Shown: positions 1,818-28,298, counted from the stretch's first letter. The stretch is 64,000 nucleotides of DNA from Deltaproteobacteria bacterium (GCA_029858205.1 JAOUFM010000003.1:210936-274935); one strand, 5' to 3'. Notes: generated by a model not told the origin, from the letters alone. A program made the numbers and translations.

Positions 1818-1864
1818 TATACGCCTGCCCTTATCGCGACCATACACCGTATACTTCGGATCAT

Positions 1865-4460: not shown

Positions 4461-4469
4461 CCGGTGGCG

Positions 4470-6249: not shown

Positions 6250-6264
6250 ACCACCCTTTTGTTT

Positions 6265-7065: not shown

Positions 7066-7080
7066 CTATACAATTCTCCT

Positions 7081-7800: not shown

Positions 7801-7906
7801 ATTATCTCTCCTCTCTGTCTTCTTTGATATTACACGCTCGCGCAACGGACCACAACAGCGCATTGTCTGCCGCCCTCGCGGTACAAAAACCCTTGCAACA
7901 TGTTTT

Positions 7907-8689: not shown

Positions 8690-8744
8690 TATTTGCCTCT
8701 CGATTGCCGTATTTATCTAAGCCAACGGCGCACATCGGCTTGTA

Positions 8745-9893: not shown

Positions 9894-9920
9894 ATAATAT
9901 CCGGCTCCACCTCGCTACAC

Positions 9921-12257: not shown

Positions 12258-12264
12258 ACTCGTA

Positions 12265-13089: not shown

Positions 13090-13092
13090 AAA

Positions 13093-14034
<942 letters not shown>

Positions 14035-15171: not shown

Positions 15172-15172
15172 T

Positions 15173-15874: not shown

Positions 15875-15891
15875 CTCATTGAACTCCGGCC

Positions 15892-17217
15892 CTACGCCGG
15901 CACCACCTTTTTGCTTTTAAATTTCCTTGCCGCGCCTCTTGCATCCACCACTATCTTGCTGTTAACAGCTATCATCTTATAGTCGTAACACGTATGGTCC
16001 GTGGATATGACGACGCAATCGTATTTCTTTAACGCCGCGGGGGTAAGTTTCACGGACTTAAGTTCGATTGCATGGTGCCGCATCCTCGGCATCTTCGGCA
16101 CATAGGGGTCGTTATAATCCACCTTTGCGCCAAGCCCCTTTAGCATTTCTATGATATGCACGGAAGGAGACTCCCTCATGTCATCCACATCTTTTTTATA
16201 CGCCGCTCCGAGCACAAGGATACGCGAGCCTTTGACGGACTTGCCTTCCTTGTTTAGCGCTGTACCGACCTTCCCAATGACATAAGAAGGCATGGAGGTG
16301 TTTATCTCCCCGGCAAGCTCTATAAAGCGCGTTGCGAACTCGTACTCCTTCGCCTTCCACGTAAGGTAAAACGGGTCTATGGGAATGCAATGCCCGCCAA
16401 GGCCCGGGCCCGGATAAAAGGCCTGGAACCCGAAGGGCTTGGTCTTCGAGGCATCGATGACCTCCCATATGTCAATGCCCATCTTATCGGTAAGCATCTT
16501 AAGCTCGTTTACAAGCGCTATATTGACGCAGCGATATATATTCTCGAGAAGCTTTGTCATCTCTGCCGCGCGCGTGGTAGAGACCTCTACCACCTTATCT
16601 ATAATCTGCGAGTACAACAGACTGCCCGCTGCCAGACAATCCTTTGTAACACCGCCAACCACCTTGGGAATCGTCTTTGTCGAAAAATCCTTTCTCCCCG
16701 GATCTTCCCTTTCGGGCGAGAATACAAGGAAGTAATCTTTGCCGACACGAAGCCCTGTTTTTTCGAATTCCGTAAGAAGTATTTCGTCGGTTGTTCCGGG
16801 ATAAGTAGTGGACTCAAGAGAAACAAGCTGGCCTATTCTAAGGCGCTCCACTATCTCCTTTGTCGTACCGACAACATAGCTCATATCCGGCTCGCGCATC
16901 TTACCCAGCGGCGTAGGCACGCATATGATGACCGCATCCGGCTCCTTAAGCCTGTTCATGTCAGCGGTCGCGGCAAACTTCTTTCCCTTGACATGTTTTG
17001 CGATATCCCCTGCGGCTATGTGCTTTATGTAAGACCTTCCGGCATTGAGCGCCTTTACTTTGGACGAGTCAACATCGAACCCGAGCACCCTGAAGCCTTC
17101 GTCGCAGAACCTGAGTACCAGCGGCAACCCGACATAACCAAGCCCGATAACGCCTATGAGCGCGCTTCGTTTTTCTATTTTTTCAAGCAGTTTTTCTTTT
17201 ACGATATTTTTCGCCAT
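15892..17217 (-). CDS. nucleotide-sugar dehydrogenase (UDP-GlcNAc/UDP-ManNAc 6-dehydrogenase-like, WbpA/WecC/TviB group)
   Basis: N-terminal Rossmann [13 protein letters not shown], a catalytic region with [13 protein letters not shown], and a length of 441 aa. Confidence 0.85.
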
Positions 17218-17253
17218 AGCACCTCATTTAAAGCCGTTTCTCAGGATTTTTTC

Positions 17254-17868
17254 TCAAACCTGTCCTTTTTTGCTGATGTCTATGATCCGTGCCTGAACAA
17301 CCCCTGCCTCTATCAATGCCTTCGAAAGTTCCGCGCTTCTATAAAACGAAGTTATTACTATGGCCTCGGCTGCGCCGTCCCTGAGCTTTTCAATACCGAC
17401 AACCGGCATATCGAAAAACTTTTCGGTTCTTTCGATATCCGAAATGCAGACAAGCTCCAACCCGGCCTCCTTTAAAGACAGATACGCTATCTCGGCAACC
17501 TCATCTACGCCGCAGAAAGCGACTCTGCTTATGCCAAGCTCCTTCAACCTTGCAAACAGTTCAGCGAAATCCGTCCTCGCAACCCTGTAGAGGTTGGTAA
17601 AATTCCTCAGATGTTCGTAGGTGAGACGGGTCTTTTCAAGAAAACCATTTGGCGTAAGATAATATTTGTAGCGCTTTGCGGGAATACCGGAGACTGTTAT
17701 GTAACCTTTTGAAATGAGATTCTTTATGTAGGAATTTATGAGTCCCAGCGCAATACCGAGGTTTTTGCTTATTTCACGCTGGGTTAGGTCGCCGTTTCGC
17801 GATATCTCGTCAAGCACGAGAAGCGAACGGTACCCATCCATATGGCCGTTTTTATCCTCGCTGTTCAT
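17254..17868 (-). CDS. winged-helix (MarR-like) transcriptional regulator with C-terminal Rossmann-like domain; first gene of the glycan cluster
   Basis: LVLDEISRNGDLTQREISKNLGIALGLINSYIKNLISKGYITV is a wHTH segment. The start is uncertain: the track ORF begins at 17919, and I prefer ATG 17868 (MNSEDK). Confidence 0.55.
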   Translation of the reverse strand: MNSEDKNGHMDGYRSLLVLDEISRNGDLTQREISKNLGIALGLINSYIKNLISKGYITVSGIPAKRYKYYLTPNGFLEKTRLTYEHLRNFTNLYRVARTDFAELFARLKELGISRVAFCGVDEVAEIAYLSLKEAGLELVCISDIERTEKFFDMPVVGIEKLRDGAAEAIVITSFYRSAELSKALIEAGVVQARIIDISKKGQV

Positions 17869-18050
17869 ACTATGAACATACCATTTAATCAGGCATTTTG
17901 TCAAGTAAAACGCGTTCATGCAATGAACTGGCCGCGCGCAAAAAATTAGTAATTTACATTTGCCGGGGTTTTATTGTATGGTATATTACTTAAAATTCCC
18001 CGTGCTGTTTTATTAAAAAATATTCCAACTTCGCTATCTGAAAAGTAAAT

Positions 18051-18080
18051 TTGGCCATGCCAGTCTTTTTATGCTACAAT
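18051..18080 (+). promoter_or_regulatory. putative sigma-70 promoter for the five-gene cassette
   Basis: TTGGCC (18051-18056), an 18-nt spacer, then TACAAT (18075-18080), 22 nt upstream of ATG 18103. It lies inside a 183-nt AT-rich divergent intergenic region. Confidence 0.3.
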
Positions 18081-18102
18081 AAAAGATACGGGTATATCCA
18101 AC

Positions 18103-20238
18103 ATGAATGCCAGAGATTTTGAAAAAGAGATAAAAATCCACATCGAAGCGCGCTACCCCATTTTGTGGCTCGTATCGTTCGAAGAGCGCCGGGTCGAGCG
18201 CATCGTCGAAAACCTCTGCAATACCAACGGGTTCAAGTTCTGGACATGGTCCGTGTCAAAAGGGCTCTACGGTAGCGACAAAAAAAAGAAAGAGCCCGTT
18301 GGCAGGGAAAAAATCCTTACCTCCATTGAGGAAAAGATAGTAAAGAACGAGGAAATCAATAACTTCTTCCTTTTAAAGGACATTGCCGGGTATTTCCAAT
18401 CCCACGAGTTCCTAAGAAAGTTTCGCGACATCCCGGGCACCATCGAGGACTATCGCTCGCTTAACACCGTCTGCATCCTCTCGCCAACACTTAGCGAGAT
18501 TCCGCCGGAGCTCGAAGAAGACATCGTGGTAATCGAGCTTAGCCTGCCCGAGTACGACGAAATCGAGGAGATGGTAAACACGAACTTTTCCAAATACATC
18601 CCCGCGTCGTGGCATTCGTCTACGAGGTCGGTTCTCTACAAATCGCTACAGGGCCTTTCTCTAGATAACATCAAAAGGGTCGTAAGAAAGGCAATCAGCC
18701 TGAATAGAGGCGTGCTGAACGAAGAATGCATCAAGTACATACAGGACGAGAAGCAGCAAATCATAAAAAAGCAGCAGATACTCGATTACTACCCCTACAG
18801 GGAAACTATCGACCACATCGGCGGCCTCGATGAAATAAAAAAATGGTTCGTCGAGAGAGAGCATGTCTTCCGTTTAAGCAAGGGCAAAATCGAAACTCTC
18901 GGCCTTGACGTTCCAAAAGGCCTCATGCTAATTGGCGTTCCGGGCTCCGGGAAAAGCCTCTGCTGCAAGGCCCTTGCCGGCATCTGGAACCTTCCGCTTC
19001 TAAGAATGGACGTAGGCCGTCTCTTTGGCTCGACAGTCGGAGAGTCCGAGAAAAATATTCGTAAGGCCATACAGCTTGCAGAGGCGGTAAGCCCCTGCAT
19101 AATGTGGATCGACGAGATAGACAAGGCATTCGGCGGAATATCCGGTTTCCAGGGGGATTCGGGCACGCAGCTAAGGGTGTTTGGCACCTTCATCACATGG
19201 CTGCAGGAAAAGGACAAACCCGTCTTTGTCATAGCAACTGCCAACGACCCGAAAAACCTTCCTCCCGAGCTATGGAGAAAAGGCCGCTACGACGAAGTGT
19301 TCTTCGTCGATCTTCCAAGCGCCGAGGAAAGAGACGAAATATTCAAGATACACCTCGAAAGAAGAGGACAAAAACCGTCGAACTTCCGCTTAAAGGAACT
19401 CTCGCAGAACTCGCAGGGCTACACGGGCGCCGAGATAGAGCAGGCCATAAAGGACGCGGTCGTTGCCACATTCAACACTCTGCACGAGGGAAAAGAAGCA
19501 AAAGAGGCCGACGCAATAATAGACGGCACCTTAACCCTCTCACTCGACACGGCAACGCTTCTCGAAGCGATACGGCACATAACGCCGCTCTCGGTTCTGA
19601 AAAAAGAGGAGATCGAGGCGCTTCGCGAATGGAGCCAGCAAAGGGCGCGGCCCGCATCGAAGTCTCTCTTCATGCAGCGCGCAGAGATGCTCTCTGACGC
19701 GGAAAAGCGCACTATCGCCATACACGAGGCCGGACATATAATAATGATGTGGCATCACTTCAATGGCACGCCGGTCTTCGTGAGCATAGATAACTACAAG
19801 GACACCTCTGCATTCACCGGCAAGAGCGAAAGCCTCGTAAACACACTTACCAAGCGCGACCTGGAAAAGGAAATCGGCGTGATGCTTGGCGGCATGGTGG
19901 CCGAAGACGAGGTCGGCGGAGCGGACTCGAAAACTGTTGGCGCCTCGCACGACCTTAGCGACGCAACGGCCAAGGCAAGAAGAATGGTCGTGGAATACGG
20001 CTTTGGCGACATAATGAAGAACACGAGCCTTGTAGAGCTCCAGGAATACGCCATGATGTCCGGGAAAGACATTCTCGAGGACATACAGAAGATAATCCAC
20101 GGCGCAAAGGAAGAGACCGAGTCCGTCATTTCGAAGAACAAAGCGCTTCTCGAAAAGCTCGCGGACAAGCTCGTGGCGGAGATACTCGTAAACGGCGAGG
20201 GATTAAGGAATTTCCTTACGCAGCACAATCTGGAATAA
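18103..20238 (+). CDS. soluble AAA+ ATPase (Ycf46-like N-terminus) fused to C-terminal FtsH-type M41 zinc-metalloprotease domain
   Basis: Walker A GVPGSGKS (aa 278-285), Walker B CIMWIDEID, second region of homology ATANDPKNLPPELWRKGRYDEVFFVDLP, and Zn motif HEAGH (aa 541-545). FtsH-like LGGMVAEDEVGG and GASHDLSDATAKARRMVVEYGFG follow. The N-terminal 250 aa are hydrophilic (ARYPILWLVSFEERRVERIV) with no TM helix. Confidence 0.8.
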   Translation: MNARDFEKEIKIHIEARYPILWLVSFEERRVERIVENLCNTNGFKFWTWSVSKGLYGSDKKKKEPVGREKILTSIEEKIVKNEEINNFFLLKDIAGYFQSHEFLRKFRDIPGTIEDYRSLNTVCILSPTLSEIPPELEEDIVVIELSLPEYDEIEEMVNTNFSKYIPASWHSSTRSVLYKSLQGLSLDNIKRVVRKAISLNRGVLNEECIKYIQDEKQQIIKKQQILDYYPYRETIDHIGGLDEIKKWFVEREHVFRLSKGKIETLGLDVPKGLMLIGVPGSGKSLCCKALAGIWNLPLLRMDVGRLFGSTVGESEKNIRKAIQLAEAVSPCIMWIDEIDKAFGGISGFQGDSGTQLRVFGTFITWLQEKDKPVFVIATANDPKNLPPELWRKGRYDEVFFVDLPSAEERDEIFKIHLERRGQKPSNFRLKELSQNSQGYTGAEIEQAIKDAVVATFNTLHEGKEAKEADAIIDGTLTLSLDTATLLEAIRHITPLSVLKKEEIEALREWSQQRARPASKSLFMQRAEMLSDAEKRTIAIHEAGHIIMMWHHFNGTPVFVSIDNYKDTSAFTGKSESLVNTLTKRDLEKEIGVMLGGMVAEDEVGGADSKTVGASHDLSDATAKARRMVVEYGFGDIMKNTSLVELQEYAMMSGKDILEDIQKIIHGAKEETESVISKNKALLEKLADKLVAEILVNGEGLRNFLTQHNLE

Positions 20239-20248
20239 GGGCCCCGCT

Positions 20249-20587
20249 ATGTCGTTTTTCACAAAGCTCAACACCGAACTCAAAAACAAACAGTACGTGC
20301 TCGCTGCCATAGCCGCCCTTAAGCAGACAGGCGAGATAAAGAACTACGCCATAAACGAAAAGAAGGAAAGCGTCGAAATAAACCGCGCCGGCGACATTAT
20401 ACAGGTAGTAAAAACAAAGACCGGCGAGTACGAACTGCAGGGAGACGCAAGAGTGGTAAGCGCCTTCTCGAGCAGGCTAAAGCAGCTCTACGCGTACGAG
20501 GCAATCAAAGACAACATGCCGCTGGACTTCGAGATAGCCGAAGAGATAGAAACCGCCGGAGAGATCCGCATCGTGCTTAAAGGCTAA
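20249..20587 (+). CDS. DUF1257-like small protein (Ycf35-like)
   Basis: 112 aa. The N-terminus MSFFTKLNTELKNKQYVLAAIAALKQTG resembles the MSHF(S/T)xIKTxl...L..AL..LG opening I associate with DUF1257. It starts 10 nt after the AAA+ stop. Confidence 0.5.
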   Translation: MSFFTKLNTELKNKQYVLAAIAALKQTGEIKNYAINEKKESVEINRAGDIIQVVKTKTGEYELQGDARVVSAFSSRLKQLYAYEAIKDNMPLDFEIAEEIETAGEIRIVLKG

Positions 20588-20589
20588 AT

Positions 20590-20775
20590 ATGGGTAAAGA
20601 GATAAAAATAAAGATAACACCCGACGGCAAGGTCGAGATAGATTCGACCGTGTTCAAGGACTGTAAAGAGGTGGCCGAACACCTATCGAAGGTCATAGGA
20701 AAGGTCGAGGTCTTCACCATAAAAGAAGAACACGAGCGCGAAGAAAAACTTCGCATAAAAAAAGGCGACAAATAA
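20590..20775 (+). CDS. DUF2997-like small protein
   Basis: 61 aa. IKIKITPDGKVEIDSTVFKDCKEVAEHLSKVIG resembles the I.I..DG.V......G..C......L...LG pattern of DUF2997 as I recall it. It has a Lys/Glu-rich tail and a 2-nt gap from the previous gene. Confidence 0.45.
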   Translation: MGKEIKIKITPDGKVEIDSTVFKDCKEVAEHLSKVIGKVEVFTIKEEHEREEKLRIKKGDK

Positions 20776-20779
20776 GCAC

Positions 20780-21364
20780 ATGGCATCGTCGATATTCATA
20801 GACACGCACGCGATAATCGAGAGGTCGCGTGTAAACGGCCCAGGACAGAGGCTGGTGGTCTTTTTCCAGGGCTGTCACAGGAACTGTCCTGGCTGCTTCA
20901 ATCCGGCAACGCACTCAATCGGCACTGGCGTCAAATACGGCATACGGGAGATATTCGCGCGTTTCCTCTCTAAAAACGTAAGCGGCTTAACTGTTAGCGG
21001 AGGTGAGCCGTTTCTGCAAAGCGCGGCGCTCTGTGAACTGCTTAAAACCGCAAAACGCGAACACGGCCTTACGACCGCCGTGTACACGGGATTCACGATA
21101 GAGGAAATACGTTCATCAACGGAGCTTAGCCCTGCGCTCGAGCACATAGACGTGCTCATAGACGGGGCGTTCGACGAAAACAACACAGAAAGGACAACTC
21201 TTGCAAGAGGTTCCACAAACCAGCGCCTTCACTTTCTCTCCGGCGTTTATTCGATAGATGATTTTATTTTGCCAGGCAAAGCGGAGATAATAATCAACAA
21301 GGACGGTTCGGTGGTAGAGACCGGATTTTCGAAGCCGGCGGGAATAAACTCCATCCTCTTGTAA
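20780..21364 (+). CDS. NrdG/PflA-like radical-SAM activating enzyme (4Fe-4S single-cluster domain)
   Basis: SRVNGPGQRLVVFFQGCHRNCPGCFNPATH carries the CX3CX2C cluster motif (C32, C36, C39) in the NrdG-type context, and VSGGEPF is the SAM-binding GGE motif. 194 aa. Confidence 0.75.
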   Translation: MASSIFIDTHAIIERSRVNGPGQRLVVFFQGCHRNCPGCFNPATHSIGTGVKYGIREIFARFLSKNVSGLTVSGGEPFLQSAALCELLKTAKREHGLTTAVYTGFTIEEIRSSTELSPALEHIDVLIDGAFDENNTERTTLARGSTNQRLHFLSGVYSIDDFILPGKAEIIINKDGSVVETGFSKPAGINSILL

Positions 21365-21377
21365 AACGACCCACACC

Positions 21378-24161
21378 ATGACGATAGAGAACTTCTTCAG
21401 GGACAATTCCGGCATAGCGCGCACAAGCGCAGTTGAGCAGCGCGACGCGGCGCTAAAATACCTGCGCTCGCTGCCAGAGTCTAGCGACAGGGCCGAGGAC
21501 TTCAAATCGGCGTACGCGTACATACGAAACATCAGCGACGCCGAAGAAATGCGAAACGCACTCATCGAGCTTGCCATCACGATGCCAAAGCACGGCCCGT
21601 GCATGGACCTGTTTAAAGAAGTGTTCCCCGGCGCCATCAACTCCACAGACGCCATACCCGAGCCCATACACCGCAAATCAACGCTTACGCGCCTTGTAGA
21701 CTGCGTGCCCGACAAACCGGAGTACGCCGAGGCATACGCGCGCGTCGTGGAAAAATACATCGAGGCCGCAGACAAGATAGACGACCGCTTTGCGCGGCGC
21801 TACGCGCTTGCGGAAATTGCATCGAGACTCAAACACAGGGACGAATACGAAGCCCTCATGCTCCATGCCATGAAGGTGAGCCTCGGGTTTGCCGGCCTTC
21901 CGGGCTTTAGGCAATACTCGCTTCCCGAGATAGCAAGGGAACTTCCGAAAAGCTGCGACGTGGAGGTCTACAGAAACCACACATTCCTCGGGCTTGCGTT
22001 CTCGCTGCCGCACAGGGGCGAGTTCCTCGAACTCTTCAAAAAGGCCCTGACCACGGCCATCGAGTCAACGGAGCACATCGTTGAGCCGTATTACAAGAAA
22101 TACGCCCTTCTCTTCATGGCCAACAGGCTGCCCGAGACAGCAGAGTTTTTACCGCTAAGAAAGAGCGCTTTCAGGGCCGCCCTTGCCTCGGTCGACACGC
22201 TCGCCGACAGCTTCGCCAGGCAGTACGGATATAACGAATTCCTAAAGGACGTGCCAAAGACGCGCGAATTCTCCGACATACTGCTCGATACGGTCGAGAA
22301 GAGCCTTCCGTTCTTTTCTCTAAGAAGCCAGATGTCGGACTACGAGCCCATAGAGATACTCGACCGGATACTGATCGTCGCGGACAAAAAAATATCGGAT
22401 TCGAAGAAAAAACATTACACCCGCTTCCATTACGCCGATTTTTTCCTGAAACAGCTGAACCTGATAGCCGATAACTTAAACGATGTGCGCCTTCTGGAAA
22501 TTCTAAGGCCCTACACGCACGTATGGGTAAGGCCAAAAACTTTCAGGGACTCGATACGCAAGGTGTTCGACAAGGTCTCGTCCTTAAAAGGCAGATACCA
22601 CGGCGCCGAAGTAGAGCGTCCACTTTATGTCAGCGAGGCATGCCTCGGCATAGACAAACGAAGCCGCACGGCATCCGTTATGGCGGATACGCGCGAAGGC
22701 TACGCGCTCTCGATAGACCTTGGCGCCACCAATACCGTTGTAATGCTTAAAAAACCCGGGGCATTCCCGGAATTCGTCAACATAGAAGGATTATCCGAAA
22801 CCATCGGAAGCGTTGCCTTCATAAGCACGGCAGTAGACAAGAACAACGACTTGATAGGCGCTGCGGCGCCGGCCCAGTCGCGCTCGAACAACATAAAAAA
22901 ACTGTTCATGGAAGGCGACGAAGAGGGGCGCGAGCTCATCGAGAAGTTTTTCCGCATCCTGTACTCCAGAATAAAGGAATCTGTCGAGGTGCCCGGGTTT
23001 TTCAAGAAACTTTCCGGCAGGATTTTCGATACCGTTTCCGTGACAGTGCCGGTCGGGTATACGGATTACAGCGGCGAACTTACCAGAATCATCGAAAAAT
23101 ACGCGGGCAGCGCGCGCATAAAGCTCGTGGAAGAGCCGCTTGCTGCGGCGATAGGCTATAACGTGGCGGAGAAAAAGGAAAAATTCGTCCTTGTTCTCGA
23201 CTTTGGCGGCTGCACGCTCGACCCGATGCTTTTAAGGCTCTCTACCGACATGACACACGTCATAGCAAAGCCCGACAGATCCAAGATGCTTGGCGGGCGC
23301 GACATAGACCGCTGGGTGGCCGAGTACGTGAACGAAAAGCATAACCTTAGGACCAACCCTTCGGGGCACGAGGCCCTGACTGCGGCAGAGGCGCTGAAAA
23401 TAGAACTTAGCGCCAAAAACTCGGCGAAGTTCGTGTTTGGCGGCCGCGATATCGCGGAACTTACGCGCATAGAGTTCGAGGAGCTTCTCTCGCGCAGAGG
23501 GTTCTACAGCGACATAGACAGGGAACTTTCGAACGTGCTAAAAAAGGCTTCGAAGCTCGGCGTTTATAAATCCATGATAGAGGCCGTCATCATAACCGGG
23601 GGCTCTTCGCAGATACCGTCGTTCAAGGAAAAGATATCTCACTACTTCCACAACCTGGCCGTGCAAAACGCGATATACGACCACAGCCCGCTGTCGTCGG
23701 TCGCAAGGGGCGCGGCCCTCTACGGCACGGCCTCGGTGCTGGACCGCCACCTGGCCATGGCGTACGCAATAAAGCACATTGCAAGGGAAGAGGAAAAACA
23801 GTTTGCCTACGAAATCGTACTCGAAAAGGGCGAATCGCTTCCGTTCAAAAAGACCTTGCGCTTTACTCCTGCCATGACGCTCGGTGGACAGAAGGAAATA
23901 TTTCTCGAACTCTTCGAGGTGCCCGATTCCCTTATCGTACGGCGCTGGATATCCGAGGGCGGCATGGAGTTCATAAAGCAAATACTTAAGCACACGCCCG
24001 ACGAACTCGATCTGAGGGCTTTCAAGACCGTCACGCTTTCATTCGACGCTCCTATAGAAGGAAGCACAGACATCACATTTATAGTGGAAGAGAACGGACG
24101 ATTGAAGGTGCGCTACGAAAAAGACGGCCGCGAACTTGCAACCGACATACACCTTCAGTAA
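21378..24161 (+). CDS. 927-aa protein: N-terminal alpha-helical repeat region (about 440 aa) plus C-terminal Hsp70/DnaK-like actin-fold ATPase with beta-rich tail
   Basis: Hsp70 motifs are SIDLGATNTVV (phosphate-1, from about aa 445), EEPLAAAIGYN, VLVLDFGGCTLD (phosphate-2) and VIITGGSSQIPSF (adenosine). The N-terminus has recurring segments such as FARRYALAEIASRL, YYKKYALLFMANRLPETAEF, FARQYGYNEFLKDVPKTREF and YSLPEIARELPKS. Confidence 0.75.
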   Translation: MTIENFFRDNSGIARTSAVEQRDAALKYLRSLPESSDRAEDFKSAYAYIRNISDAEEMRNALIELAITMPKHGPCMDLFKEVFPGAINSTDAIPEPIHRKSTLTRLVDCVPDKPEYAEAYARVVEKYIEAADKIDDRFARRYALAEIASRLKHRDEYEALMLHAMKVSLGFAGLPGFRQYSLPEIARELPKSCDVEVYRNHTFLGLAFSLPHRGEFLELFKKALTTAIESTEHIVEPYYKKYALLFMANRLPETAEFLPLRKSAFRAALASVDTLADSFARQYGYNEFLKDVPKTREFSDILLDTVEKSLPFFSLRSQMSDYEPIEILDRILIVADKKISDSKKKHYTRFHYADFFLKQLNLIADNLNDVRLLEILRPYTHVWVRPKTFRDSIRKVFDKVSSLKGRYHGAEVERPLYVSEACLGIDKRSRTASVMADTREGYALSIDLGATNTVVMLKKPGAFPEFVNIEGLSETIGSVAFISTAVDKNNDLIGAAAPAQSRSNNIKKLFMEGDEEGRELIEKFFRILYSRIKESVEVPGFFKKLSGRIFDTVSVTVPVGYTDYSGELTRIIEKYAGSARIKLVEEPLAAAIGYNVAEKKEKFVLVLDFGGCTLDPMLLRLSTDMTHVIAKPDRSKMLGGRDIDRWVAEYVNEKHNLRTNPSGHEALTAAEALKIELSAKNSAKFVFGGRDIAELTRIEFEELLSRRGFYSDIDRELSNVLKKASKLGVYKSMIEAVIITGGSSQIPSFKEKISHYFHNLAVQNAIYDHSPLSSVARGAALYGTASVLDRHLAMAYAIKHIAREEEKQFAYEIVLEKGESLPFKKTLRFTPAMTLGGQKEIFLELFEVPDSLIVRRWISEGGMEFIKQILKHTPDELDLRAFKTVTLSFDAPIEGSTDITFIVEENGRLKVRYEKDGRELATDIHLQ

Positions 24162-24168
24162 AACGCGC

Positions 24169-24654
24169 CTATGCGTGGGATTTAAGGATTTTCTCTACGA
24201 TGTTCGTGGTGGAGAGCCCTTTTACGAGCCGTATCCTGGCAACGCGCCCGCCGTTTGCCATAACAACGTCCTCGCCGACTATCTGCCCTTTTTTCCAATC
24301 AGCGCCCTTTACAAGGATATCCGGCTTTACCGCGGTTATGAGCTTAATGGGTGTTGAATCGCCAAAGAGCACGACATAATCGACAAATCCGAGCGCCGAG
24401 AGCACCTCTGCGCGCTCTTTCTCCGGAACTATGGGGCGTTTGTGGCCTTTGATGCCCCTTACGGAAGAATCGCTGTTTAGACCGATAACGAGCACATCGC
24501 CAAGCGATGCCGCCTTTTTAAGATACCTCACATGCCCGGCATGCAGGATATCGAAACAGCCGTTCGTGAAAACAACCTTTTTCCTCTTCGCCTTTTGCCT
24601 TTTCAGGCATGTAAGCAGTTTTTTAAGCCCTACGATCTCTCCCACGCCTCGCAC
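24169..24654 (-). CDS. hldC: D-glycero-beta-D-manno-heptose 1-phosphate adenylyltransferase (RfaE domain II type, stand-alone)
   Basis: VVFTNGCFDILHAGHVRYLKKAASLGDVLVIGLNSDSSV is the cytidylyltransferase-fold HxGH motif in the RfaE-II context. 161 aa. Confidence 0.85.
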   Translation of the reverse strand: MRGVGEIVGLKKLLTCLKRQKAKRKKVVFTNGCFDILHAGHVRYLKKAASLGDVLVIGLNSDSSVRGIKGHKRPIVPEKERAEVLSALGFVDYVVLFGDSTPIKLITAVKPDILVKGADWKKGQIVGEDVVMANGGRVARIRLVKGLSTTNIVEKILKSHA

Positions 24655-24684: not shown

Positions 24685-25431
24685 TCACAGTTTGACTGCC
24701 ATGGCAAACGTGGCAACATAGACCGCTGCCCCGGCCCTGGCAAGCACCTTTGAGCACTCGGCTATGGTCGCTCCGGTGGTACACACGTCGTCGATGAGAA
24801 GAACGCGCCTGTTCTTTACCGCGCCCTTGTCCCTGAGCGCAAAGGCGTCTTTCACGTTCGCACTCCGCTCGTTGTGCTCGAGCTCGACCTGCGGCCTGGT
24901 GTGCCTGATCCTTTCGAGATTGTCGTAAGAAAGGCGTGCGCCAAGCCTTTTCGAAACCTCGCGCGCTATAAGAAGCGACTGGTTAAAACCGCGCTCCCTT
25001 AGCCGTTTTAAATGAAGCGGCACGGGCATGACCGTATCGAAGCCGCCTTCGCCAAGACCTTTCGCAGCCAGAGACACCCACTTGGCCATCGGCCGCGCAA
25101 GCTCGGTCTTTTTATTGTACTTTAAATCGCGCACCGCCTCCGCAACATTGCCATCGTAGAAAAACGCACTGCGCATCGCCTCGAACCAGCGCTTTTCCGT
25201 AAGACATTCGCCGCAGCTACCCGGCGTTTCTATCGCTCCGGCAAAAGGCCTGCCGCATTTTACGCAGTGCGCAGCATCGGATATCTTCCTGATACTATCG
25301 AGACAGGCATTGCAAAGCCAGCTGTCCGAAGCTGTCTTGCCGCAAAAGCGGCAGAGGTTCGGGAAAAACACGTCCAGAAAAGGCAGCGCAAAAGTTTTCG
25401 CCCTTTTTCCAAGCTCCGTTGCCGTTATCAT
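24685..25431 (-). CDS. comF: ComF family protein (phosphoribosyltransferase domain with N-terminal Cys-rich zinc finger)
   Basis: N-terminal CRFCG...CNAC...CVKCGRP...CGEC cysteines, and the PRTase motif VLLIDDVCTTGATI. Confidence 0.8.
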   Translation of the reverse strand: MITATELGKRAKTFALPFLDVFFPNLCRFCGKTASDSWLCNACLDSIRKISDAAHCVKCGRPFAGAIETPGSCGECLTEKRWFEAMRSAFFYDGNVAEAVRDLKYNKKTELARPMAKWVSLAAKGLGEGGFDTVMPVPLHLKRLRERGFNQSLLIAREVSKRLGARLSYDNLERIRHTRPQVELEHNERSANVKDAFALRDKGAVKNRRVLLIDDVCTTGATIAECSKVLARAGAAVYVATFAMAVKL

Positions 25432-27026
25432 GCCAGGCCCCCTTTGGGCGCTGCAGGCAGCTTGACCGTGAACACCGAACCCTTGCCAGGCTTGCTATCT
25501 ACGAAGATATTGCCGCCGTGCTCCCTGACTATGCCCCTGCTAACGCTAAGGCCAAGGCCGGTGCCTACCCCAGGCTCTTTTGTCGTAAAGAACGGCTCGA
25601 AAAGCCTTGCCACCGTTCTCTCATCCATTCCCGTGCCCGTATCGCTGACACTTAATATGACATGACGTGAGTCAGGGCCGTCCTCGCACTCCGTTGCAAG
25701 CACAATCTCTCCGCCGCCAGGCATGGCGTCCCGCGCGTTGGCAACGAGATTTACGATTACCTGCTCGAGCCTGGTAGAATCGCCGATAACAGGCGGCAGC
25801 GTTCCTTTTTCAAACCTGACCTCTACACCGCTTTTCTTTAGTATCTCGCCAACGACTATGAACGCATCGTCGATAACGGCATTTAAGTCCACCTGTTTGT
25901 ACACGGGATTATCCTGACGCATGAACACGCGAAGATGCCCGACTACATTTTCCATCTTTCTTGCCGCAGAGTCTATTACTTTTAATTTTTCGAACACATC
26001 GGCGTCCATGCCTTCCTTTTTAAGAAGGTGCTGGGTAAGCCCGCTTACCACCGTAAGCGGCTGCCTTAGCTCGTGCGCGAGCACGGCAGACATCTCGCCA
26101 AGGGCCCTAAGCTTCGAGACCTGCGTCAGATGGTCCTGTGCCTGCTTGAGTTCGTTGTACGCGGCCTTCAAGTCCTTTTCTCCGTCATCGAGGATCTTTA
26201 CCATGCCAACAAGGCTGTCGACCACTTCCTCGTGCCTGCGCTCTCTTTGCTCAAGCTCCCTTTTTACCGCGCGCACCTCGCTACGTAACTCTTCGACCTT
26301 GCCCGTCTCCGTAAACACAATGACAAAACCGTCCCTTATGGTATCGAGTTTCATGGCAGCGGCCCGGATGCGTTTTTTTACTCCGCCGATTCTGGCTTCA
26401 ACGGTCATCGGGGAAGAACCAAGCACATCCATATCAACATCGCCCAAGACCTGCGCTATGTTTGGCCCCTTGGCCCCGGCATAAACGAGACCAAATGTAT
26501 CCAGAAACGTCTTGCCTGCATACAGAATGTTCCCCTTCGAATCAACGGCACAGACAAAAAAATCGCTCACAGACAAGGCCTTGCTTACTATCTCCACCTC
26601 TGCCTCCACGAGACCAACGGCCCTGCCAAGCATCGATACAAGCCCATCGTCTTTTCCGTGCTTTTTTGCCACTCCCGACATTTCAAGCCTGCTCCACTTC
26701 AATTCCAGCAAACTGCTTCTTTTAACGACCGCCGCTGCCCCGACAAACAACGTATCCAATATAGCCACTATCTTCTTCCAGAAAATAACGGAAAATACGA
26801 TACCGACCGCCAGGCCTACCAGGACAGAAAACCCAAAACTGACATATTGCGCCTGCTCCAGTATCTTTTCAGGCTCGACGGCGCCAAGTATATTCGAACT
26901 ATCCACATCCTCGACATAAAAAAGAAAAACAACCCTGGCGCCAAGGGCAATCAGCACAACGCCAAGCATTGCCGCCAGAATCGAAAGCGAAAGTTTTTTT
27001 CTTACATCCAAGAATTCTTTATGCAT
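25428..27026 (-). CDS. membrane sensor histidine kinase (2 TM, PAS-like, HisKA, HATPase_c)
   Basis: The H-box is LGEMSAVLAHELRQPLT. The N/G boxes are NLVANARDAM, DTGTGMD and GTGLGLSVSRGIV. It overlaps comF by 4 nt (ATGA). Confidence 0.85.
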   Translation of the reverse strand: MHKEFLDVRKKLSLSILAAMLGVVLIALGARVVFLFYVEDVDSSNILGAVEPEKILEQAQYVSFGFSVLVGLAVGIVFSVIFWKKIVAILDTLFVGAAAVVKRSSLLELKWSRLEMSGVAKKHGKDDGLVSMLGRAVGLVEAEVEIVSKALSVSDFFVCAVDSKGNILYAGKTFLDTFGLVYAGAKGPNIAQVLGDVDMDVLGSSPMTVEARIGGVKKRIRAAAMKLDTIRDGFVIVFTETGKVEELRSEVRAVKRELEQRERRHEEVVDSLVGMVKILDDGEKDLKAAYNELKQAQDHLTQVSKLRALGEMSAVLAHELRQPLTVVSGLTQHLLKKEGMDADVFEKLKVIDSAARKMENVVGHLRVFMRQDNPVYKQVDLNAVIDDAFIVVGEILKKSGVEVRFEKGTLPPVIGDSTRLEQVIVNLVANARDAMPGGGEIVLATECEDGPDSRHVILSVSDTGTGMDERTVARLFEPFFTTKEPGVGTGLGLSVSRGIVREHGGNIFVDSKPGKGSVFTVKLPAAPKGGLA

Positions 27027-27032
27027 TTATAT

Positions 27033-28298
27033 TTACGTCTCTTCCCGAAAATCGTCCTTAACGCCCCGCTCTCGAAGCGTTTGGCTGCCGAATGTTCCGG
27101 CCTCCTGTTTATGCATTTCCCTTTTTACGGCAAGTATGGCCAGGTCCTCGAGATTCTTTATTGCCGCCTTCAGTTTTTGCTCGCTTTCCTCGGCCCTGAC
27201 CCTTGCCTCTACGGCCTCGTCCATAAGACGCTTTTTTTCGCTCACATCTCTGGCAACAAGCAGCGCAGACTCGATTTTTCCGCCCGATGCAAGCGGCACT
27301 GCGGTTATATCCCATATACCGTCTTTGCTGCCGCCAAACTCCCTTGGTTCCTGCGGCCTTCCGTCGAACACAGCGGCCAGGAACGCTTTATAATCCAAGT
27401 CCGCTGACTTATCCATGAAATCGCCAAAGCGCGCGCCAAGGAGCCCGCTGCCGCTTTTCTTTAAAAGCCTCATCGCCCCGTGGTTCGCGTACTTTATCCT
27501 GCCGGCCCGGTCAAGTTCTACAACGCAGTCGGGCAATGACTCGAGTATCTCAATATAATGCGCTATGGAGTCCTTCAGCATAGCAACTGCCGCGTTATAA
27601 TATGCCGCGATATCGGCCAACTCGACAGTTCCTTTTTCGTCAAGTTGATAATTATAATTACCTTTGGCAAGGCACTCCATGCCAAGAACCGTGTTTTCAA
27701 GCGGCTCGACAACGATTCTACGATTAATAAGATACATTATCAAAAAACACACAACGAAGAATACGGCAAAGGCCGCTGTCATGGTCTTCATTCGCATGAC
27801 ATTTGCCGCATAATGCGCGGACATAAGCCGCACATTATCGTCTATCTGGTTTATCAGGCCCGGAATCAATACATCGAGGATCTCCGTCCGCTTACTTCTG
27901 CTGACTTTCTTATCTTTAAACTCCTTTAATGCGGTCTTTACGTTCCCCCAGCCCGCCTCAGTTGCATTAAGGCTTTTTATTATTTCCTCATTCTCGGCAA
28001 AACCCGATGTTCCATACCTGGCATCTCCGTGCTTGAGGCCATAGAGAACGCTGTCTACCTGCCCGATGTTTTCATCCAGCGCATGGGAAATTCTATCAAA
28101 TTCAGCCTCCGAAGCATTCACAGACCTTAAAACAAGATTCTGTATAGACACTACGAAAAACCTCTGACGCCCCACAAGGTTTATTTCCCCATGGCTGCCG
28201 TGGAGCGTATTAACCGTATTGACCATTAACGCAAAAAATATAATGGCAATAAGCAACAACACTCCTATGAATGATTTTGCCAGATTGGCGGATTTCAT
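27033..28298 (-). CDS. membrane sensor protein (PilJ-type N-terminal sensor helix bundle, HAMP, PAS, coiled coil) without output domain
   Basis: The LVGRQRFF motif is typical of PilJ/NarX-like periplasmic sensor domains. It also has a TM segment, a HAMP-like INRRIVVEPL...AYYNAAVAMLKD, a PAS-like ILESLPDCVVELDRAGRIKYANHGAMRLL, and a C-terminal charged coiled coil. It ends 6 nt before the kinase gene. Confidence 0.6.
   Translation of the reverse strand: MKSANLAKSFIGVLLLIAIIFFALMVNTVNTLHGSHGEINLVGRQRFFVVSIQNLVLRSVNASEAEFDRISHALDENIGQVDSVLYGLKHGDARYGTSGFAENEEIIKSLNATEAGWGNVKTALKEFKDKKVSRSKRTEILDVLIPGLINQIDDNVRLMSAHYAANVMRMKTMTAAFAVFFVVCFLIMYLINRRIVVEPLENTVLGMECLAKGNYNYQLDEKGTVELADIAAYYNAAVAMLKDSIAHYIEILESLPDCVVELDRAGRIKYANHGAMRLLKKSGSGLLGARFGDFMDKSADLDYKAFLAAVFDGRPQEPREFGGSKDGIWDITAVPLASGGKIESALLVARDVSEKKRLMDEAVEARVRAEESEQKLKAAIKNLEDLAILAVKREMHKQEAGTFGSQTLRERGVKDDFREET

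What the first reader, a model, noticed from the sequence alone, without database searches (positions are those of the whole stretch)
21378..24161. 927-aa protein joining about 440 aa of helical repeats to an Hsp70-like ATPase
The C-terminal half carries all the actin-fold/Hsp70 nucleotide-binding motifs: IDLGATNT from about aa 445, EPLAAAIGYN, DFGGCTLD and GGSSQIP. A beta-rich tail follows. The N-terminal half is unrelated to Hsp70. It shows a recurring segment of about 40-50 aa: FARRYALAEIASRLKHRDEYE, YSLPEIARELPKSCDVE, YYKKYALLFMANRLPETAEF and FARQYGYNEFLKDVPKTREF. This suggests HEAT/ARM-like solenoid repeats, that is, a scaffold or recognition surface. No J-domain or GrpE-like co-chaperone is encoded nearby, which argues against a standard DnaK cycle.
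Basis: partly seen in the sequence, partly recalled or inferred. Interest (0 to 1): 0.65.

Follow-up and report, generated by a model that had tools for sequence, protein, structure and literature searches.

The report
Repeat-armed lidless Hsp70 in protease operon
This is a real 927-residue protein that joins a TPR-like helical repeat arm to an active Hsp70 chaperone lacking its lid, and it is always encoded with a soluble FtsH-like protease, a radical-SAM activase and two small unknown proteins, which marks an uncharacterised five-protein machine in uncultured anaerobes.

Summary
ORF 21378-24161 (+) is one uninterrupted 927-aa gene, and full-length relatives occur in about 90 species genomes, so it is not two genes joined by an error.

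- **Repeats (aa ~18-313):** seven to eight two-helix repeats of about 41 aa. They form a TPR-like alpha-solenoid rather than HEAT/ARM. Their closest sequence relatives are the repeat arrays of STAND NTPases.
- **Connector (aa 314-440):** a helical segment found only in this family.
- **Hsp70 part (aa 441-927):** all catalytic residues are invariant. The beta substrate-binding domain is present. The helical lid is absent.

This is the last gene of a strictly conserved five-gene operon:
- a soluble AAA+/M41 FtsH-like protease
- a weakly DUF1257 (Ycf35)-like protein
- a DUF2997-like protein
- an NrdG-like radical-SAM activase, whose gene abuts or overlaps the Hsp70 gene in most loci
- the Hsp70 fusion

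No J-domain, GrpE or NrdD gene was found in the window.

My best reading is a client-dedicated Hsp70 subunit of an undescribed chaperone, protease and radical-SAM machine. The architecture is secure. The mechanism is inferred. A defence role is the main rival. I found no description of this operon in the literature searched.

The parts
21378..24161 (+). Whole ORF: 927-aa fusion of a TPR-like solenoid, a connector and a lidless Hsp70. The stop codon is at 24159-24161.
   Evidence: Searches show the ORF. One search finds 53 full-length homologues at 37-48% identity. One search finds relatives in 91 matching stretches of the species-genome collection, of which 79 distinct loci were kept.
21429..22316 (+). 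aa ~18-313: seven to eight two-helix repeats of about 41 aa forming a TPR-like alpha-solenoid. The recurring motif is xxRxxALxxIAxELPxTxEFxxLYxxAxxxA. One unit, aa ~170-213, is irregular.
22317..22697 (+). aa 314-440: family-specific helical connector. It carries most of the invariant residues of the N-terminal half (D329, D369, P378, W383, P386, R390, H408, G409, E411, P415). It includes the segment YHGxE[IV]ERPxF[VI] at aa 407-422.
   Evidence: Invariant columns are listed. There is no internal repeat here. Among the best 150 of 453 hits, this part of the profile matched only the family and its fragments. Residues 411-420 form a strand at pLDDT about 86 in the full-length model, but are disordered (pLDDT about 38) when the N-half is modelled alone.
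22698..23732 (+). aa 441-785: Hsp70 nucleotide-binding domain with intact catalytic residues. It has about 340 residues. The N-terminal lobe falls outside the Pfam HSP70 match, so it is more divergent.
   Evidence: Pfam HSP70 E = 4.7e-27. The best solved relatives are BiP and DnaK nucleotide-binding domains at about 1e-19 to 1e-21. D447, K507, E586, D608, T613 and the GGSSQIP motif are invariant or nearly so in 53 sequences.
23733..24158 (+). aa 786-927: interdomain linker (VLDRHLAMAYA) and an Hsp70-type substrate-binding beta domain. There is no helical lid. A family-specific hairpin carries invariant R855, W857, E864 and Q868. The extreme C-terminus is nearly invariant (L926, Q927).
   Evidence: The top Foldseek hit is Mycoplasma DnaK lacking SBD-alpha (5obu): 541 aligned columns against a 518-residue target, E = 2e-19. 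A weak sequence match falls on the last SBD-beta strands of a DnaK (hhalign E = 0.004).
18103..20238 (+). Operon gene 1: soluble FtsH-like AAA+ zinc protease, 711 aa. It has a conserved N-domain with no family match (aa 1-230), an AAA module and an M41 peptidase with HEAGH.
   Evidence: Pfam AAA and Peptidase_M41 match. Walker A, Walker B, the pore loop, the arginine fingers and H-E-x-G-H are invariant in 52 orthologues, and the N-domain is 73% identical. No hydrophobic segment is present; the maximum Kyte-Doolittle value over 19 residues is 1.17. Orthologues are 68-77% identical.
20249..20587 (+). Operon gene 2: 112-aa protein, weakly DUF1257 (Ycf35)-like.
   Evidence: Pfam DUF1257 E = 0.016 over nearly the whole profile. 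Only 4 of 19 orthologues match, best E = 0.0021. It is conserved at 46-62% identity in every complete cassette. No solved relative exists.
20590..20775 (+). Operon gene 3: 61-aa DUF2997-like protein with invariant D24 and C25.
   Evidence: Pfam DUF2997 E = 5.7e-4. 17 of 18 orthologues match, best E = 1.2e-5, all below the gathering score.
20780..21364 (+). Operon gene 4: NrdG-like radical-SAM activase, 194 aa, with CHRNCPGC, SGGEP and RGSTNQ motifs and a C-terminal extension of about 40 aa.
   Evidence: Fer4_12 E = 6.6e-34. NCBIfam NrdG TIGR02491 scores 117.3 bits against a cut-off of 126.1. Conserved motifs are shown. The gap to the Hsp70 gene is 13 nt here. Across loci the median is 4 nt, with overlap in 30 of 71.
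18051..18080 (+). Candidate sigma-70-type promoter of the operon: TTGGCC, 18 nt, TG-TACAAT, ending 23 nt before the AAA start codon.
   Evidence: Consensus scan. Similar TTGACA/TATAAT pairs lie close to the AAA start in many related loci. This is a pattern match only.

Best explanation
The ORF encodes the chaperone and recognition subunit of an uncharacterised, fully soluble five-protein machine. All five proteins are made from one operon.

Shown:
- The protein has three parts: a TPR-like solenoid, a family-specific connector, and an Hsp70 with an intact ATPase and beta substrate-binding domain but no lid.
- Wherever enough upstream DNA is available, with one exception, it follows the same four genes: a soluble FtsH-like AAA+ zinc protease, a weakly DUF1257-like protein, a DUF2997-like protein and an NrdG-like radical-SAM activase.
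- Its gene is most tightly spaced with the activase gene.

Inferred:
- It works as a client-dedicated Hsp70, in the way HscA serves IscU, rather than as a general DnaK.
- The solenoid holds one specific partner in its groove. The most likely partner is the co-produced activase, one of the small proteins, or a protein the activase acts on.
- The ATP-driven, lidless beta domain transiently clamps a segment of that client.
- The invariant YHGxE[IV]ERPxF segment of the connector contacts the Hsp70 module in cis and stands in for the missing J-domain or exchange-factor control.
- The soluble FtsH-like hexamer then unfolds and degrades, or processes, what the Hsp70 presents. This resembles the way TPR co-chaperones link eukaryotic Hsp70 to degradation.
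- The activase supplies a radical-based protein modification that the machine installs, controls or cleans up in these anaerobes.
For: The gene and its architecture are supported.

The cassette is strictly conserved. Gene order AAA-M41 / 112 aa / 61 aa / rSAM / Hsp70 fusion is the same in L001, L003 and L004. It is also the same in every related locus with enough upstream DNA, about 60 of 83, apart from L033.

All enzymes look active. The Hsp70 catalytic residues are invariant. The AAA Walker motifs, pore loop, arginine fingers and HEXGH are invariant. The rSAM CX3CX2C and GGE motifs are conserved.

None of the five proteins has a membrane segment.

The rSAM and Hsp70 genes abut or overlap. 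The median gap is 4 nt, 46 of 71 gaps are 20 nt or less, and 30 overlap.

The connector segment 411-420 is confidently ordered only when the Hsp70 half is present.

The tail carries family-specific invariant charged and aromatic residues, which points to a specific ligand rather than a promiscuous one.

The solenoid's nearest relatives are ligand-binding repeat arrays of STAND NTPases and peptide-binding LGN-type TPRs.

The setting is chromosomal and housekeeping-like. The window neighbours are CysS, GlnA, ArgH, RfaE, ComF and UDP-glucose dehydrogenase. Flanks are partly conserved across loci. There are no matches in the plasmid or phage collections. The protease is very strongly conserved, at 68-77% identity.

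No J-domain, GrpE or HscB-like gene lies in the operon or window.
Against: No interaction, client or activity has been shown. Every mechanistic step after the architecture is inference from domain content and gene order.

The activase falls just below the NrdG cut-off (117.3 against 126.1 bits). No glycyl-radical motif (RVxG[YF]) was recognised by eye in the Hsp70 fusion or the two small proteins, and there was no systematic scan of all five proteins.

The repeat arm is the fastest-evolving part, and repeat number varies among homologues. This fits a variable target as well as a fixed partner.

The housekeeping DnaJ and GrpE of the cell could still serve this Hsp70 in trans. In L001 and L003 they lie about 7 kb downstream.

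Every genome carrying the system is an uncultured metagenome-assembled genome, so no phenotype exists.
Confidence: 0.45

Rival explanations
1. It is an anti-phage or other conflict system. The TPR-like arm is a sensor for a foreign protein. The Hsp70 ATPase is the switch. The FtsH-like protease, the radical-SAM enzyme, or both are the effector.
For: The repeat arm is related to the C-terminal sensor arrays of STAND NTPases. It is the least conserved region.

The AAA module resembles IetA/IteA anti-phage ATPases: PADLOC E = 4.5e-32 and NCBIfam IteA 102 bits. The radical-SAM protein gives weak prokaryotic-viperin hits.

Occurrence is rare and patchy: 91 matching stretches among 185,579 species genomes. 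Records labelled Nitrospirae carry a protease about as similar to the window's as Deltaproteobacteria records do.

Restriction-modification-like genes are inserted inside the cassette in L058 and L060.

A published precedent exists: CoCoNuT CnuD joins an Hsp70 NBD/SBD to HEAT-like repeats in a defence system (PMC11090510).
Against: No PADLOC model fits beyond generic AAA, rSAM and Hsp70 similarity, and the IteA score is far below its cut-off of 510.

The neighbours in the window and in L001 and L003 are housekeeping genes, not defence islands or mobile elements. Flanks are partly conserved across many loci. There are no plasmid or phage copies.

The protease is 68-77% identical across all loci, with a 73% identical N-domain. 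From general knowledge, that is unusually constrained for a defence component. No nuclease, TIR, pore-forming or other classic effector domain is present.
Confidence: 0.2
2. It is a redox- or iron-sulfur-linked regulatory switch, the anaerobe counterpart of the cyanobacterial and plastid DUF2997-Ycf35-Fed7 module that is wired to the Hsp70 system. The [4Fe-4S] protein reports redox or oxygen state, and the Hsp70 and AAA+ protease execute the response.
For: In cyanobacteria duf2997, ycf35 (DUF1257) and the [4Fe-4S] ferredoxin gene fed7 form a conserved cluster. Fed7 binds a DnaJ-like protein, and photosynthetic eukaryotes carry DnaJ-Fed7 fusion proteins (PMC4284462).

Here the same pair of small-protein families sits beside a [4Fe-4S] radical-SAM protein and an Hsp70. 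Among NCBIfam models, HscA, the Fe-S cluster chaperone, scores highest for the ATPase domain: 100 bits against 83 for DnaK. The AAA protein is labelled SpoVK/Ycf46/Vps4 family by one source. Cyanobacterial Ycf46 is a stress-induced AAA ATPase (bioRxiv 10.1101/2025.07.21.665879).
Against: The DUF1257 assignment is weak: E = 0.016, and only 4 of 19 orthologues match. The DUF2997 scores stay below the gathering cut-off.

The Fe-S protein here is an NrdG-type enzyme with full SAM-binding motifs, not a ferredoxin. The Ycf46 label is a generic COG name, and orthology was not tested. The HscA preference is small and far below the family cut-off. The parallel is an analogy between gene neighbourhoods, not a test.
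Confidence: 0.15
3. It is a peptide-maturation (RiPP-like) operon. One small protein is a precursor modified by the radical-SAM enzyme, then trimmed by the protease. The Hsp70 fusion holds the peptide.
For: Two small ORFs immediately precede a radical-SAM gene. The 61-aa protein has an invariant Asp-Cys pair. A peptidase is encoded in the same operon.
Against: Both small proteins are conserved along their whole length (mean column identity 70-71%) and show no leader/core pattern.

The radical-SAM enzyme is a minimal NrdG-type activase. No SPASM/twitch or peptide-recognition domain appeared in the Pfam results.

No transporter or immunity gene is in the operon. From general knowledge, a processive AAA+ M41 protease is not a typical leader peptidase.
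Confidence: 0.07
4. It is an ordinary DnaK paralogue with a decorative N-terminal extension, and its neighbours are coincidental.
For: It passes the Pfam HSP70 threshold and keeps all catalytic residues. NCBI names it 'Hsp70 family protein'.
Against: It lacks the lid. It scores 83-100 bits against DnaK and HscA cut-offs of 620-1019.

The same four genes precede it in about 60 independent loci, at 37-52% identity of the fusion itself. Its gene abuts or overlaps the activase gene in most loci.
Confidence: 0.03

Closest known systems
DnaK and HscA (canonical bacterial Hsp70s)
   Same: The actin-fold nucleotide-binding domain has all catalytic residues. A hydrophobic interdomain linker and the beta substrate-binding domain are present. 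In my model it serves one dedicated client, as HscA does.
   Different: There is no helical lid. A 440-aa N-terminal solenoid and connector are added. No J-protein or exchange factor is encoded in the operon or window. Scores fall far below the DnaK and HscA family cut-offs. The N-terminal lobe of the ATPase domain lies outside the Pfam match.
CoCoNuT type III CnuD/CnuCD (Hsp70-like NBD/SBD plus HEAT-like repeats; PMC11090510)
   Same: Of the published architectures found in these searches, this is the only one that also joins an Hsp70 NBD/SBD unit to a helical repeat domain in prokaryotes.
   Different: CnuD sits in McrBC-type restriction operons with HEPN RNases and has degenerate ATPase motifs. 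Here the motifs are invariant. The partners are a protease, an activase and two small proteins, and no McrB/McrC-like or nuclease domain appeared in the neighbouring genes examined. Direct sequence relatedness to CnuD was not tested.
Cyanobacterial and plastid DUF2997-Ycf35(DUF1257)-Fed7 cluster and the Fed7-DnaJ link (PMC4284462)
   Same: Two small-protein families, one assigned only weakly here, are encoded side by side next to a [4Fe-4S] protein that is functionally tied to the Hsp70 system.
   Different: There the Fe-S protein is a ferredoxin and the Hsp70 link is a separate DnaJ-like protein. Here it is an NrdG-like radical-SAM enzyme and the Hsp70 itself is in the operon. The DUF1257 similarity is weak.
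FtsH (AAA+ / M41 zinc protease)
   Same: Gene 1 of the operon has an AAA module of the classic clade, an M41 domain and the HEXXH zinc site.
   Different: It has no transmembrane anchors. It carries a 230-aa N-domain with no Pfam match. It scores 173 bits against the FtsH cut-off of 600.
NrdG (anaerobic ribonucleotide reductase activase)
   Same: Small size, the CX3CX2C cluster motif, GGE, and the VNGPG and RGS(S/T)NQ motifs. The motif comparison with E. coli NrdG rests on my own knowledge.
   Different: It scores just below the NrdG cut-off. It has an extra C-terminal extension of about 40 aa. None of the ten large window ORFs scanned with Pfam is an NrdD or other glycyl-radical enzyme. It is fixed in this operon.
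TPR arrays of STAND NTPases and LGN/Pins-type 40-residue TPR superhelices; eukaryotic TPR co-chaperones (Hop, CHIP)
   Same: The repeats are two-helix units of about 41 aa. Profile matches fall on STAND C-terminal arrays and on TPR_10/12/30 proteins. Foldseek matches LGN TPR. As with CHIP, a TPR element would couple an Hsp70 to degradation. That last point is an analogy from general knowledge.
   Different: No Pfam TPR model hits this protein itself. The array is fused in cis to the Hsp70 instead of binding its C-terminus in trans. The structure matches are generic for alpha-solenoids.

Membership tests
Hsp70 superfamily (PF00012) | Actin-fold ATPase domain with phosphate-1, phosphate-2 and adenosine motifs, and the catalytic Asp/Lys/Glu/Asp/Thr set | tested here: met
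   The motifs are at aa 446-453, 608-615 and 741-747. D447, K507, E586, D608 and T613 are invariant in 53 homologues. Pfam scores 94.9 bits against a cut-off of 20.6.
Hsp70 superfamily (PF00012) | Beta-sandwich substrate-binding domain after a hydrophobic linker | tested here: met
   The Foldseek alignment spans NBD plus SBD-beta of lid-deleted DnaK: 5obu, 541 columns, E = 2e-19. A weak sequence match falls on the last strands.
Hsp70 superfamily (PF00012) | C-terminal helical lid (SBD-alpha) | tested here: not met
   The protein ends at aa 927 directly after the beta domain, and the model has no helices after aa 782. The best structural match is a lid-deletion mutant.
DnaK / HscA equivalogs (NCBIfam) | Score above the curated family cut-off | tested here: not met
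   HscA gives 100.1 bits against a cut-off of 620. DnaK gives 83.2 against 648 and 82.7 against 822.55.
DnaK / HscA equivalogs (NCBIfam) | Dedicated co-chaperones (DnaJ and GrpE, or HscB) encoded with it | tested here: not met
   None is among the neighbouring genes. tblastn with GrpE, DnaJ and HrcA finds no hit in the whole 64-kb window.
HEAT / ARM repeats | Match to HEAT or Arm sequence models | tested here: not met
   Pfam finds no family for aa 1-441, even at E <= 10.
HEAT / ARM repeats | Stacked two-helix (HEAT) or three-helix (ARM) repeats forming a solenoid | tested here: inconclusive
   A two-helix solenoid is confirmed. The structural neighbours mix HEAT-like proteins (Vps35, coatomer) with TPR-like proteins (alpha-SNAP, Get4, LGN, OGT) and designed repeats.
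TPR (40-42-residue type: TPR_10 / TPR_12, LGN / KLC-like) | Helix-turn-helix repeats with a period of about 40-42 residues, related to known TPR arrays | tested here: inconclusive
   The period is about 41 aa. The profile finds arrays in proteins that also carry TPR_10/12/30 or AAA_16/NACHT domains, at E = 1e-28 to 1e-9. No Pfam TPR model hits this protein directly.
CoCoNuT CnuD | Hsp70-like NBD/SBD with helical repeats, encoded with McrB/McrC (DUF2357) homologues, and with degenerate ATPase motifs | tested here: not met
   The architecture is similar. No McrB, McrC or HEPN domain is in the surrounding genes, and the ATPase motifs are invariant. The family definition is taken from PMC11090510.
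FtsH ternary systems (vWA-MoxR; PMC7159879) | MoxR AAA+ and vWA proteins together with FtsH | tested here: not met
   No vWA or MoxR domain is among the operon or flanking genes.
FtsH (operon gene 1) | AAA module plus M41 peptidase with HEXXH | tested here: met
FtsH (operon gene 1) | N-terminal transmembrane anchors; score above the FtsH cut-off | tested here: not met
   The maximum 19-residue hydropathy is 1.17. TIGR01241 gives 173 bits against a cut-off of 600.
NrdG (operon gene 4) | Small radical-SAM protein with CX3CX2C; score above the cut-off; NrdD partner | tested here: inconclusive
   The motifs are present. It scores 117.3 against a cut-off of 126.1. None of the ten large window ORFs scanned with Pfam is an NrdD or glycyl-radical enzyme. 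The rest of the genome could not be examined.
DUF1257 (Ycf35) and DUF2997 (operon genes 2 and 3) | Match to the Pfam models above the gathering score | tested here: inconclusive
   For DUF2997, 17 of 18 orthologues match, best E = 1.2e-5, all below the 24.1-bit cut-off. For DUF1257, 4 of 19 match, best E = 0.0021. Adjacency of the two families is known from cyanobacteria.

The most novel reading that the evidence does not exclude
The five-gene cassette is a previously undescribed radical-SAM-coupled chaperone and protease machine. An NrdG-type activase would place a glycyl or other radical on a protein held by the TPR-armed, lidless Hsp70. The soluble FtsH-like protease would remove or process the product, for example after oxygen damage. 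Because the cassette appears to contain DUF2997 and, more weakly, Ycf35/DUF1257 relatives next to an Fe-S protein and an Hsp70, it would also supply the first mechanistic handle on Ycf35 and DUF2997. I found no assigned function for either, and their only reported functional connection is through Fed7 and its DnaJ-like partner.
Probability: 0.15. Interest if true: 0.85.

Novelty: new variant of a known kind. Interest (0 to 1): 0.6.

Why it matters
Hsp70s are among the best-studied proteins. A conserved bacterial lineage that drops the lid, fuses a TPR-like client arm in cis, and has no J-protein or exchange factor encoded in its operon would be a natural experiment in how the Hsp70 cycle can be rewired.

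Its fixed partnership with a soluble FtsH-like protease would give a compact prokaryotic example of direct chaperone-to-protease coupling. In my reading this resembles eukaryotic TPR co-chaperone triage.

The obligatory NrdG-like activase suggests a protein-radical step with no known substrate.

The two small proteins may connect the system to Ycf35 and DUF2997, plastid and cyanobacterial open reading frames for which I found no assigned function.

If the system is instead a defence system, it would be a new type with an Hsp70 switch.

Tried and rejected
- **Two genes joined by error: rejected.** The frame is uninterrupted here and in nearly all related loci. Only L072, L075 and L077 are split.
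- **HEAT/ARM assignment by sequence:** no Pfam hit at all on aa 1-441.
- **Known defence systems:** PADLOC gives only generic similarity to IetA, pVip and PDC-M61B.
- **Solved relatives of the two small proteins:** none.
- **More distant relatives of the 112-aa protein and of the protease.** The searches returned only cassette orthologues in the listed top 120, so other genomic contexts of these families could not be explored.
- **Regulatory motifs upstream of the operon in 53 loci.** CIRCE, sigma-54, FNR and NrdR boxes are absent, and sigma-32-like and Fur-like matches are sporadic. Only sigma-70-like hexamers recur.
- **Small downstream TPR gene.** It is present in 39 loci and absent from this window.
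- **Plasmid and phage collections:** no match for the N-terminal half or, in plasmids, for the small proteins.
- **AlphaFold database fold search:** the library was unavailable.
- **Glycyl-radical motif.** By eye, no RVxG[YF]-type site was recognised in the Hsp70 fusion or the two small proteins. This was not a rigorous test.
- **Literature.** Searches for DUF2997/DUF1257, for Hsp70 with radical SAM and AAA, and for Hsp70-like with TPR and anti-phage found no description of this operon.

Full report
**The observation**

ORF 21378-24161 on the + strand is the only long frame at that place and encodes 927 aa. In an alignment of 53 full-length homologues (A1), D447, K507, E586, D608 and T613 are invariant, and GGSSQIP is nearly so. 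I equate these with DnaK D8, K70, E171, D194 and T199 by motif alignment and my own knowledge. Pfam HSP70 is passed at 94.9 bits against a cut-off of 20.6, although only profile positions 134-372 are matched. The best solved relatives by sequence are BiP and DnaK nucleotide-binding domains, at E about 1e-19 to 1e-21.

**Architecture**

An AlphaFold model built on the 53-sequence alignment has mean pLDDT 83.8. It shows:
- helix pairs from aa 18 to 313
- further helices to aa 406
- a short strand at aa 416-422
- the nucleotide-binding domain at aa 443-782
- an all-beta domain at aa 795-925

Foldseek against the PDB puts a Mycoplasma DnaK deletion mutant lacking SBD-alpha first: 5obu, 541 aligned columns against a 518-residue target, E = 2e-19. 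The 'beta-rich tail' is therefore the Hsp70 substrate-binding beta domain, and the helical lid is missing. A weak sequence match falls on the last SBD-beta strands of a DnaK and agrees with this (hhalign E = 0.004).

**The repeats**

Profile-profile self-comparison of the N-terminal alignment finds mutually matching units at about 48-92, 90-133, 130-174, 194-240, 230-280 and 271-310. Probabilities are 92-98% and E-values reach 1e-13. Nothing repeats beyond aa 310. With the first helix pair and an irregular unit at aa 170-213, this gives seven to eight repeats of about 41 aa.

No Pfam family, HEAT, ARM or TPR, matches aa 1-441 even at E <= 10. A profile of aa 1-438 (A2) searched against 1.84 billion representative proteins found 453 hits. 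After the family itself, the hits are large proteins matched only in the repeat part, in 3-10 stretches each, at E = 1e-28 to 1e-9. I scanned eight of these. Three are AAA_16/NACHT STAND NTPases whose matched stretches lie C-terminal to the NTPase domain. Three carry TPR_10, TPR_12 or TPR_30.

**The connector**

Residues 314-440 are not repeated and are more conserved than the repeats: 39% against 33% mean identity to the window protein. They carry most of the invariant residues of the N-terminal half, including PYTHVW and YHGxE[IV]ERP. Among the listed hits, this part of the profile matched only the family and its fragments.

Residues 411-420 form a strand with pLDDT about 86 in the full-length model. 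They are disordered, at pLDDT about 38, when the N-half is modelled alone. This predicts an intramolecular contact with the Hsp70 module. I could not see which surface is involved.

The gene is the last of five tightly spaced + strand genes. Gaps in the window are 10, 2, 4 and 13 nt.
- **18103-20238:** a 711-aa AAA+ / Peptidase_M41 protein with Walker A and B motifs and HEAGH, but no hydrophobic segment.
- **20249-20587:** a 112-aa protein weakly similar to DUF1257/Ycf35 (E = 0.016; 4 of 19 orthologues match).
- **20590-20775:** a 61-aa DUF2997-like protein (17 of 18 orthologues match, best E = 1.2e-5, below the gathering score).
- **20780-21364:** a 194-aa radical-SAM protein. Its best family is the NrdG activase, at 117.3 bits against a cut-off of 126.1, and it has CX3CX2C, GGE and RGSTNQ motifs.
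- **21378-24161:** the Hsp70 fusion.

The same order is found on contigs carrying homologues at only about 40% identity (L001, L003, L004).

A scan of one genome per species (185,579 species) found 91 matching stretches. All but a few records are explicitly labelled metagenome-assembled genomes, and none is a named cultured isolate. Most are labelled Deltaproteobacteria, Thermodesulfobacteriota or Nitrospirae. In every locus with enough upstream DNA, about 60, all four partner genes precede the fusion. L033 is the one exception.

Identity to the window proteins is:

| Protein | Identity to window protein |
|---|---|
| AAA-M41 protease | 68-76% |
| Radical-SAM activase | 47-64% |
| 112-aa protein | 46-62% |
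| 61-aa protein | 49-80% |
| Hsp70 fusion | 37-52% |

In 52 protease orthologues the ATPase motifs, pore loop, arginine fingers and H-E-x-G-H are invariant, and the unassigned N-domain is 73% identical.

The radical-SAM and Hsp70 genes are the most tightly spaced pair. The median gap is 4 nt, and 30 of 71 pairs overlap under a simple start-codon rule.

**Setting**

The window neighbours are ordinary chromosomal genes. They include a MarR/EPS-type regulator and a UDP-glucose dehydrogenase upstream, and RfaE domain II, ComF and sensor kinases downstream. CysS, GlnA and ArgH lie further away. No J-domain, GrpE or HrcA homologue was detected in the 64 kb by tblastn, and none of the large ORFs scanned is an NrdD.

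Across loci the flanks are partly conserved. A small TPR protein follows the fusion in 39 loci, an LPG_synthase_C gene follows in 25, and a VTT gene precedes the cassette in 18. The small TPR gene is absent from this window.

Neither the N-terminal half nor the small proteins have relatives in the plasmid collection, and the N-terminal half has none in the phage collection. A sigma-70-like promoter match lies just upstream of the first gene. No heat-shock, NrdR, FNR or sigma-54 element recurs.

**Interpretation**

Secure:
- This is a single gene for a TPR-like solenoid, a connector and a lidless, catalytically intact Hsp70.
- It belongs to a conserved operon of five soluble proteins.

Inferred:
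- The protein acts as a client-dedicated Hsp70. The solenoid docks a specific partner.
- The lidless beta domain, which carries family-specific invariant residues R855, W857, E864 and Q868, clamps a defined segment.
- The connector segment supplies in cis the control normally given by J-proteins or exchange factors.
- The soluble FtsH-like protease receives the client.
- The NrdG-like enzyme contributes a radical-based step on a protein.
- The close spacing of the activase and Hsp70 genes makes the activase, or its substrate, the most likely client.

I put about 0.45 on this general model. Any single step deserves much less.

**Rivals**

*Defence or conflict system, about 0.2.* In favour: the STAND-like sensor repeats, the faster evolution of the arm, generic similarity to IetA and viperin, patchy occurrence, restriction-modification-like insertions inside the cassette in L058 and L060, and the CoCoNuT CnuD precedent of Hsp70 NBD/SBD plus HEAT-like repeats. 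Against: the housekeeping neighbourhood, partly conserved flanks, a very constrained protease, no classic effector domain, and no PADLOC system match.

*Redox or Fe-S switch, about 0.15.* This would parallel the cyanobacterial DUF2997-Ycf35-Fed7 cluster, in which the [4Fe-4S] ferredoxin Fed7 binds a DnaJ-like protein. It is an attractive lead, because the same two small-protein families may again sit next to an Fe-S protein and an Hsp70. The DUF1257 assignment is weak, and the Fe-S protein here is an enzyme, not a ferredoxin.

*RiPP-like maturation, about 0.07.* I consider this unlikely, for the reasons given with that explanation.

*Plain DnaK paralogue with coincidental neighbours, about 0.03.* This is contradicted by the conserved gene order.

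**Comparison with known families**

The protein is a member of the Hsp70 superfamily. It is not a DnaK, HscA or HscC orthologue: the family cut-offs are missed by a factor of six or more, it has no lid, and no co-chaperones are encoded with it. It resembles CnuD in architecture only. The protease is FtsH-like but soluble and far below the FtsH cut-off. The activase is NrdG-like but just below the cut-off, with no NrdD nearby. Literature searches found no description of this operon. Databases call the proteins 'Hsp70 family protein', 'AAA family ATPase' and 'hypothetical protein'.

**Verdict**

This is a genuine and well-conserved new variant of Hsp70, embedded in an uncharacterised five-gene system. 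The function is still inferred. Interest is moderately high.

Noticed in passing
L060:5595-8146 and L058:6628-8261: In two related genomes, restriction-modification-like genes are inserted on the same strand between the DUF2997-like and radical-SAM genes of the cassette. One insertion has a C5-methyltransferase with an FCGPGG motif plus two further ORFs. The other has a Dam-like methyltransferase plus one ORF. These assignments were made by eye from the sequences.
   Followed up: partly
L001:10864-11295, and the equivalent position in 39 loci: A small TPR protein of about 144 aa lies about 215 nt downstream of the Hsp70 fusion in 39 loci, on the same strand in 36 of them. It may be a sixth component. 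It is absent from this window, where a convergent rfaE-like gene follows (24169-24654, minus strand).
   Followed up: partly
L033:1-5075: This is the only locus where the fusion gene has more than 2 kb of upstream DNA but no radical-SAM gene. It is preceded instead by a nucleotidyltransferase/HEPN-like pair and an outer-membrane-like protein. These identifications were made by eye only.
   Followed up: no
L072:8959-11554, L075:4391-7230, L077:2188-4481: In three metagenome-derived contigs the fusion is split into two ORFs within or near the connector. The cause could be a frameshift, a pseudogene or an assembly error. This was not resolved.
   Followed up: no
window 570-17919, minus strand: An almost uninterrupted array of about 18 minus-strand ORFs runs up to a MarR-type, EPS-associated regulator (17254-17919) and a UDP-glucose/GDP-mannose dehydrogenase (15892-17217). 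It is probably a polysaccharide biosynthesis cluster transcribed divergently from the operon.
   Followed up: no
window 25428-28298, minus strand: A HAMP-PAS protein without a kinase domain (27033-28298) is immediately followed by a HisKA-HATPase protein (25428-27026). This could be a split sensor kinase or two cooperating sensors.
   Followed up: no
window 2754-4460, 36453-38174 and 40277-42043, all minus strand: Three large ORFs of 568, 573 and 588 aa have no Pfam match at E <= 1e-5.
   Followed up: no
window 24144-24158 (aa 923-927 of the fusion): The extreme C-terminus of the fusion is invariant or nearly so across 53 homologues (T922, L926, Q927; consensus TGLRLQ). It could simply be the last beta strand, or it could be a recognition tag for a TPR groove or a protease.
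   Followed up: no
window 18040-18102, and upstream regions of 53 loci: Sigma-70-like -35 and -10 hexamers sit only about 20-40 nt before the AAA start codon, and no Shine-Dalgarno-like sequence is evident in many loci.
   Followed up: partly
window 18103-18792 (aa 1-230 of the AAA-M41 protein): The N-domain of the protease has no family match yet is 73% identical across 52 orthologues, with long invariant stretches (RYPILWLVSFEERRVE, WSVSRGL, HEFLRxFRD). This suggests a strongly constrained docking surface.
   Followed up: partly
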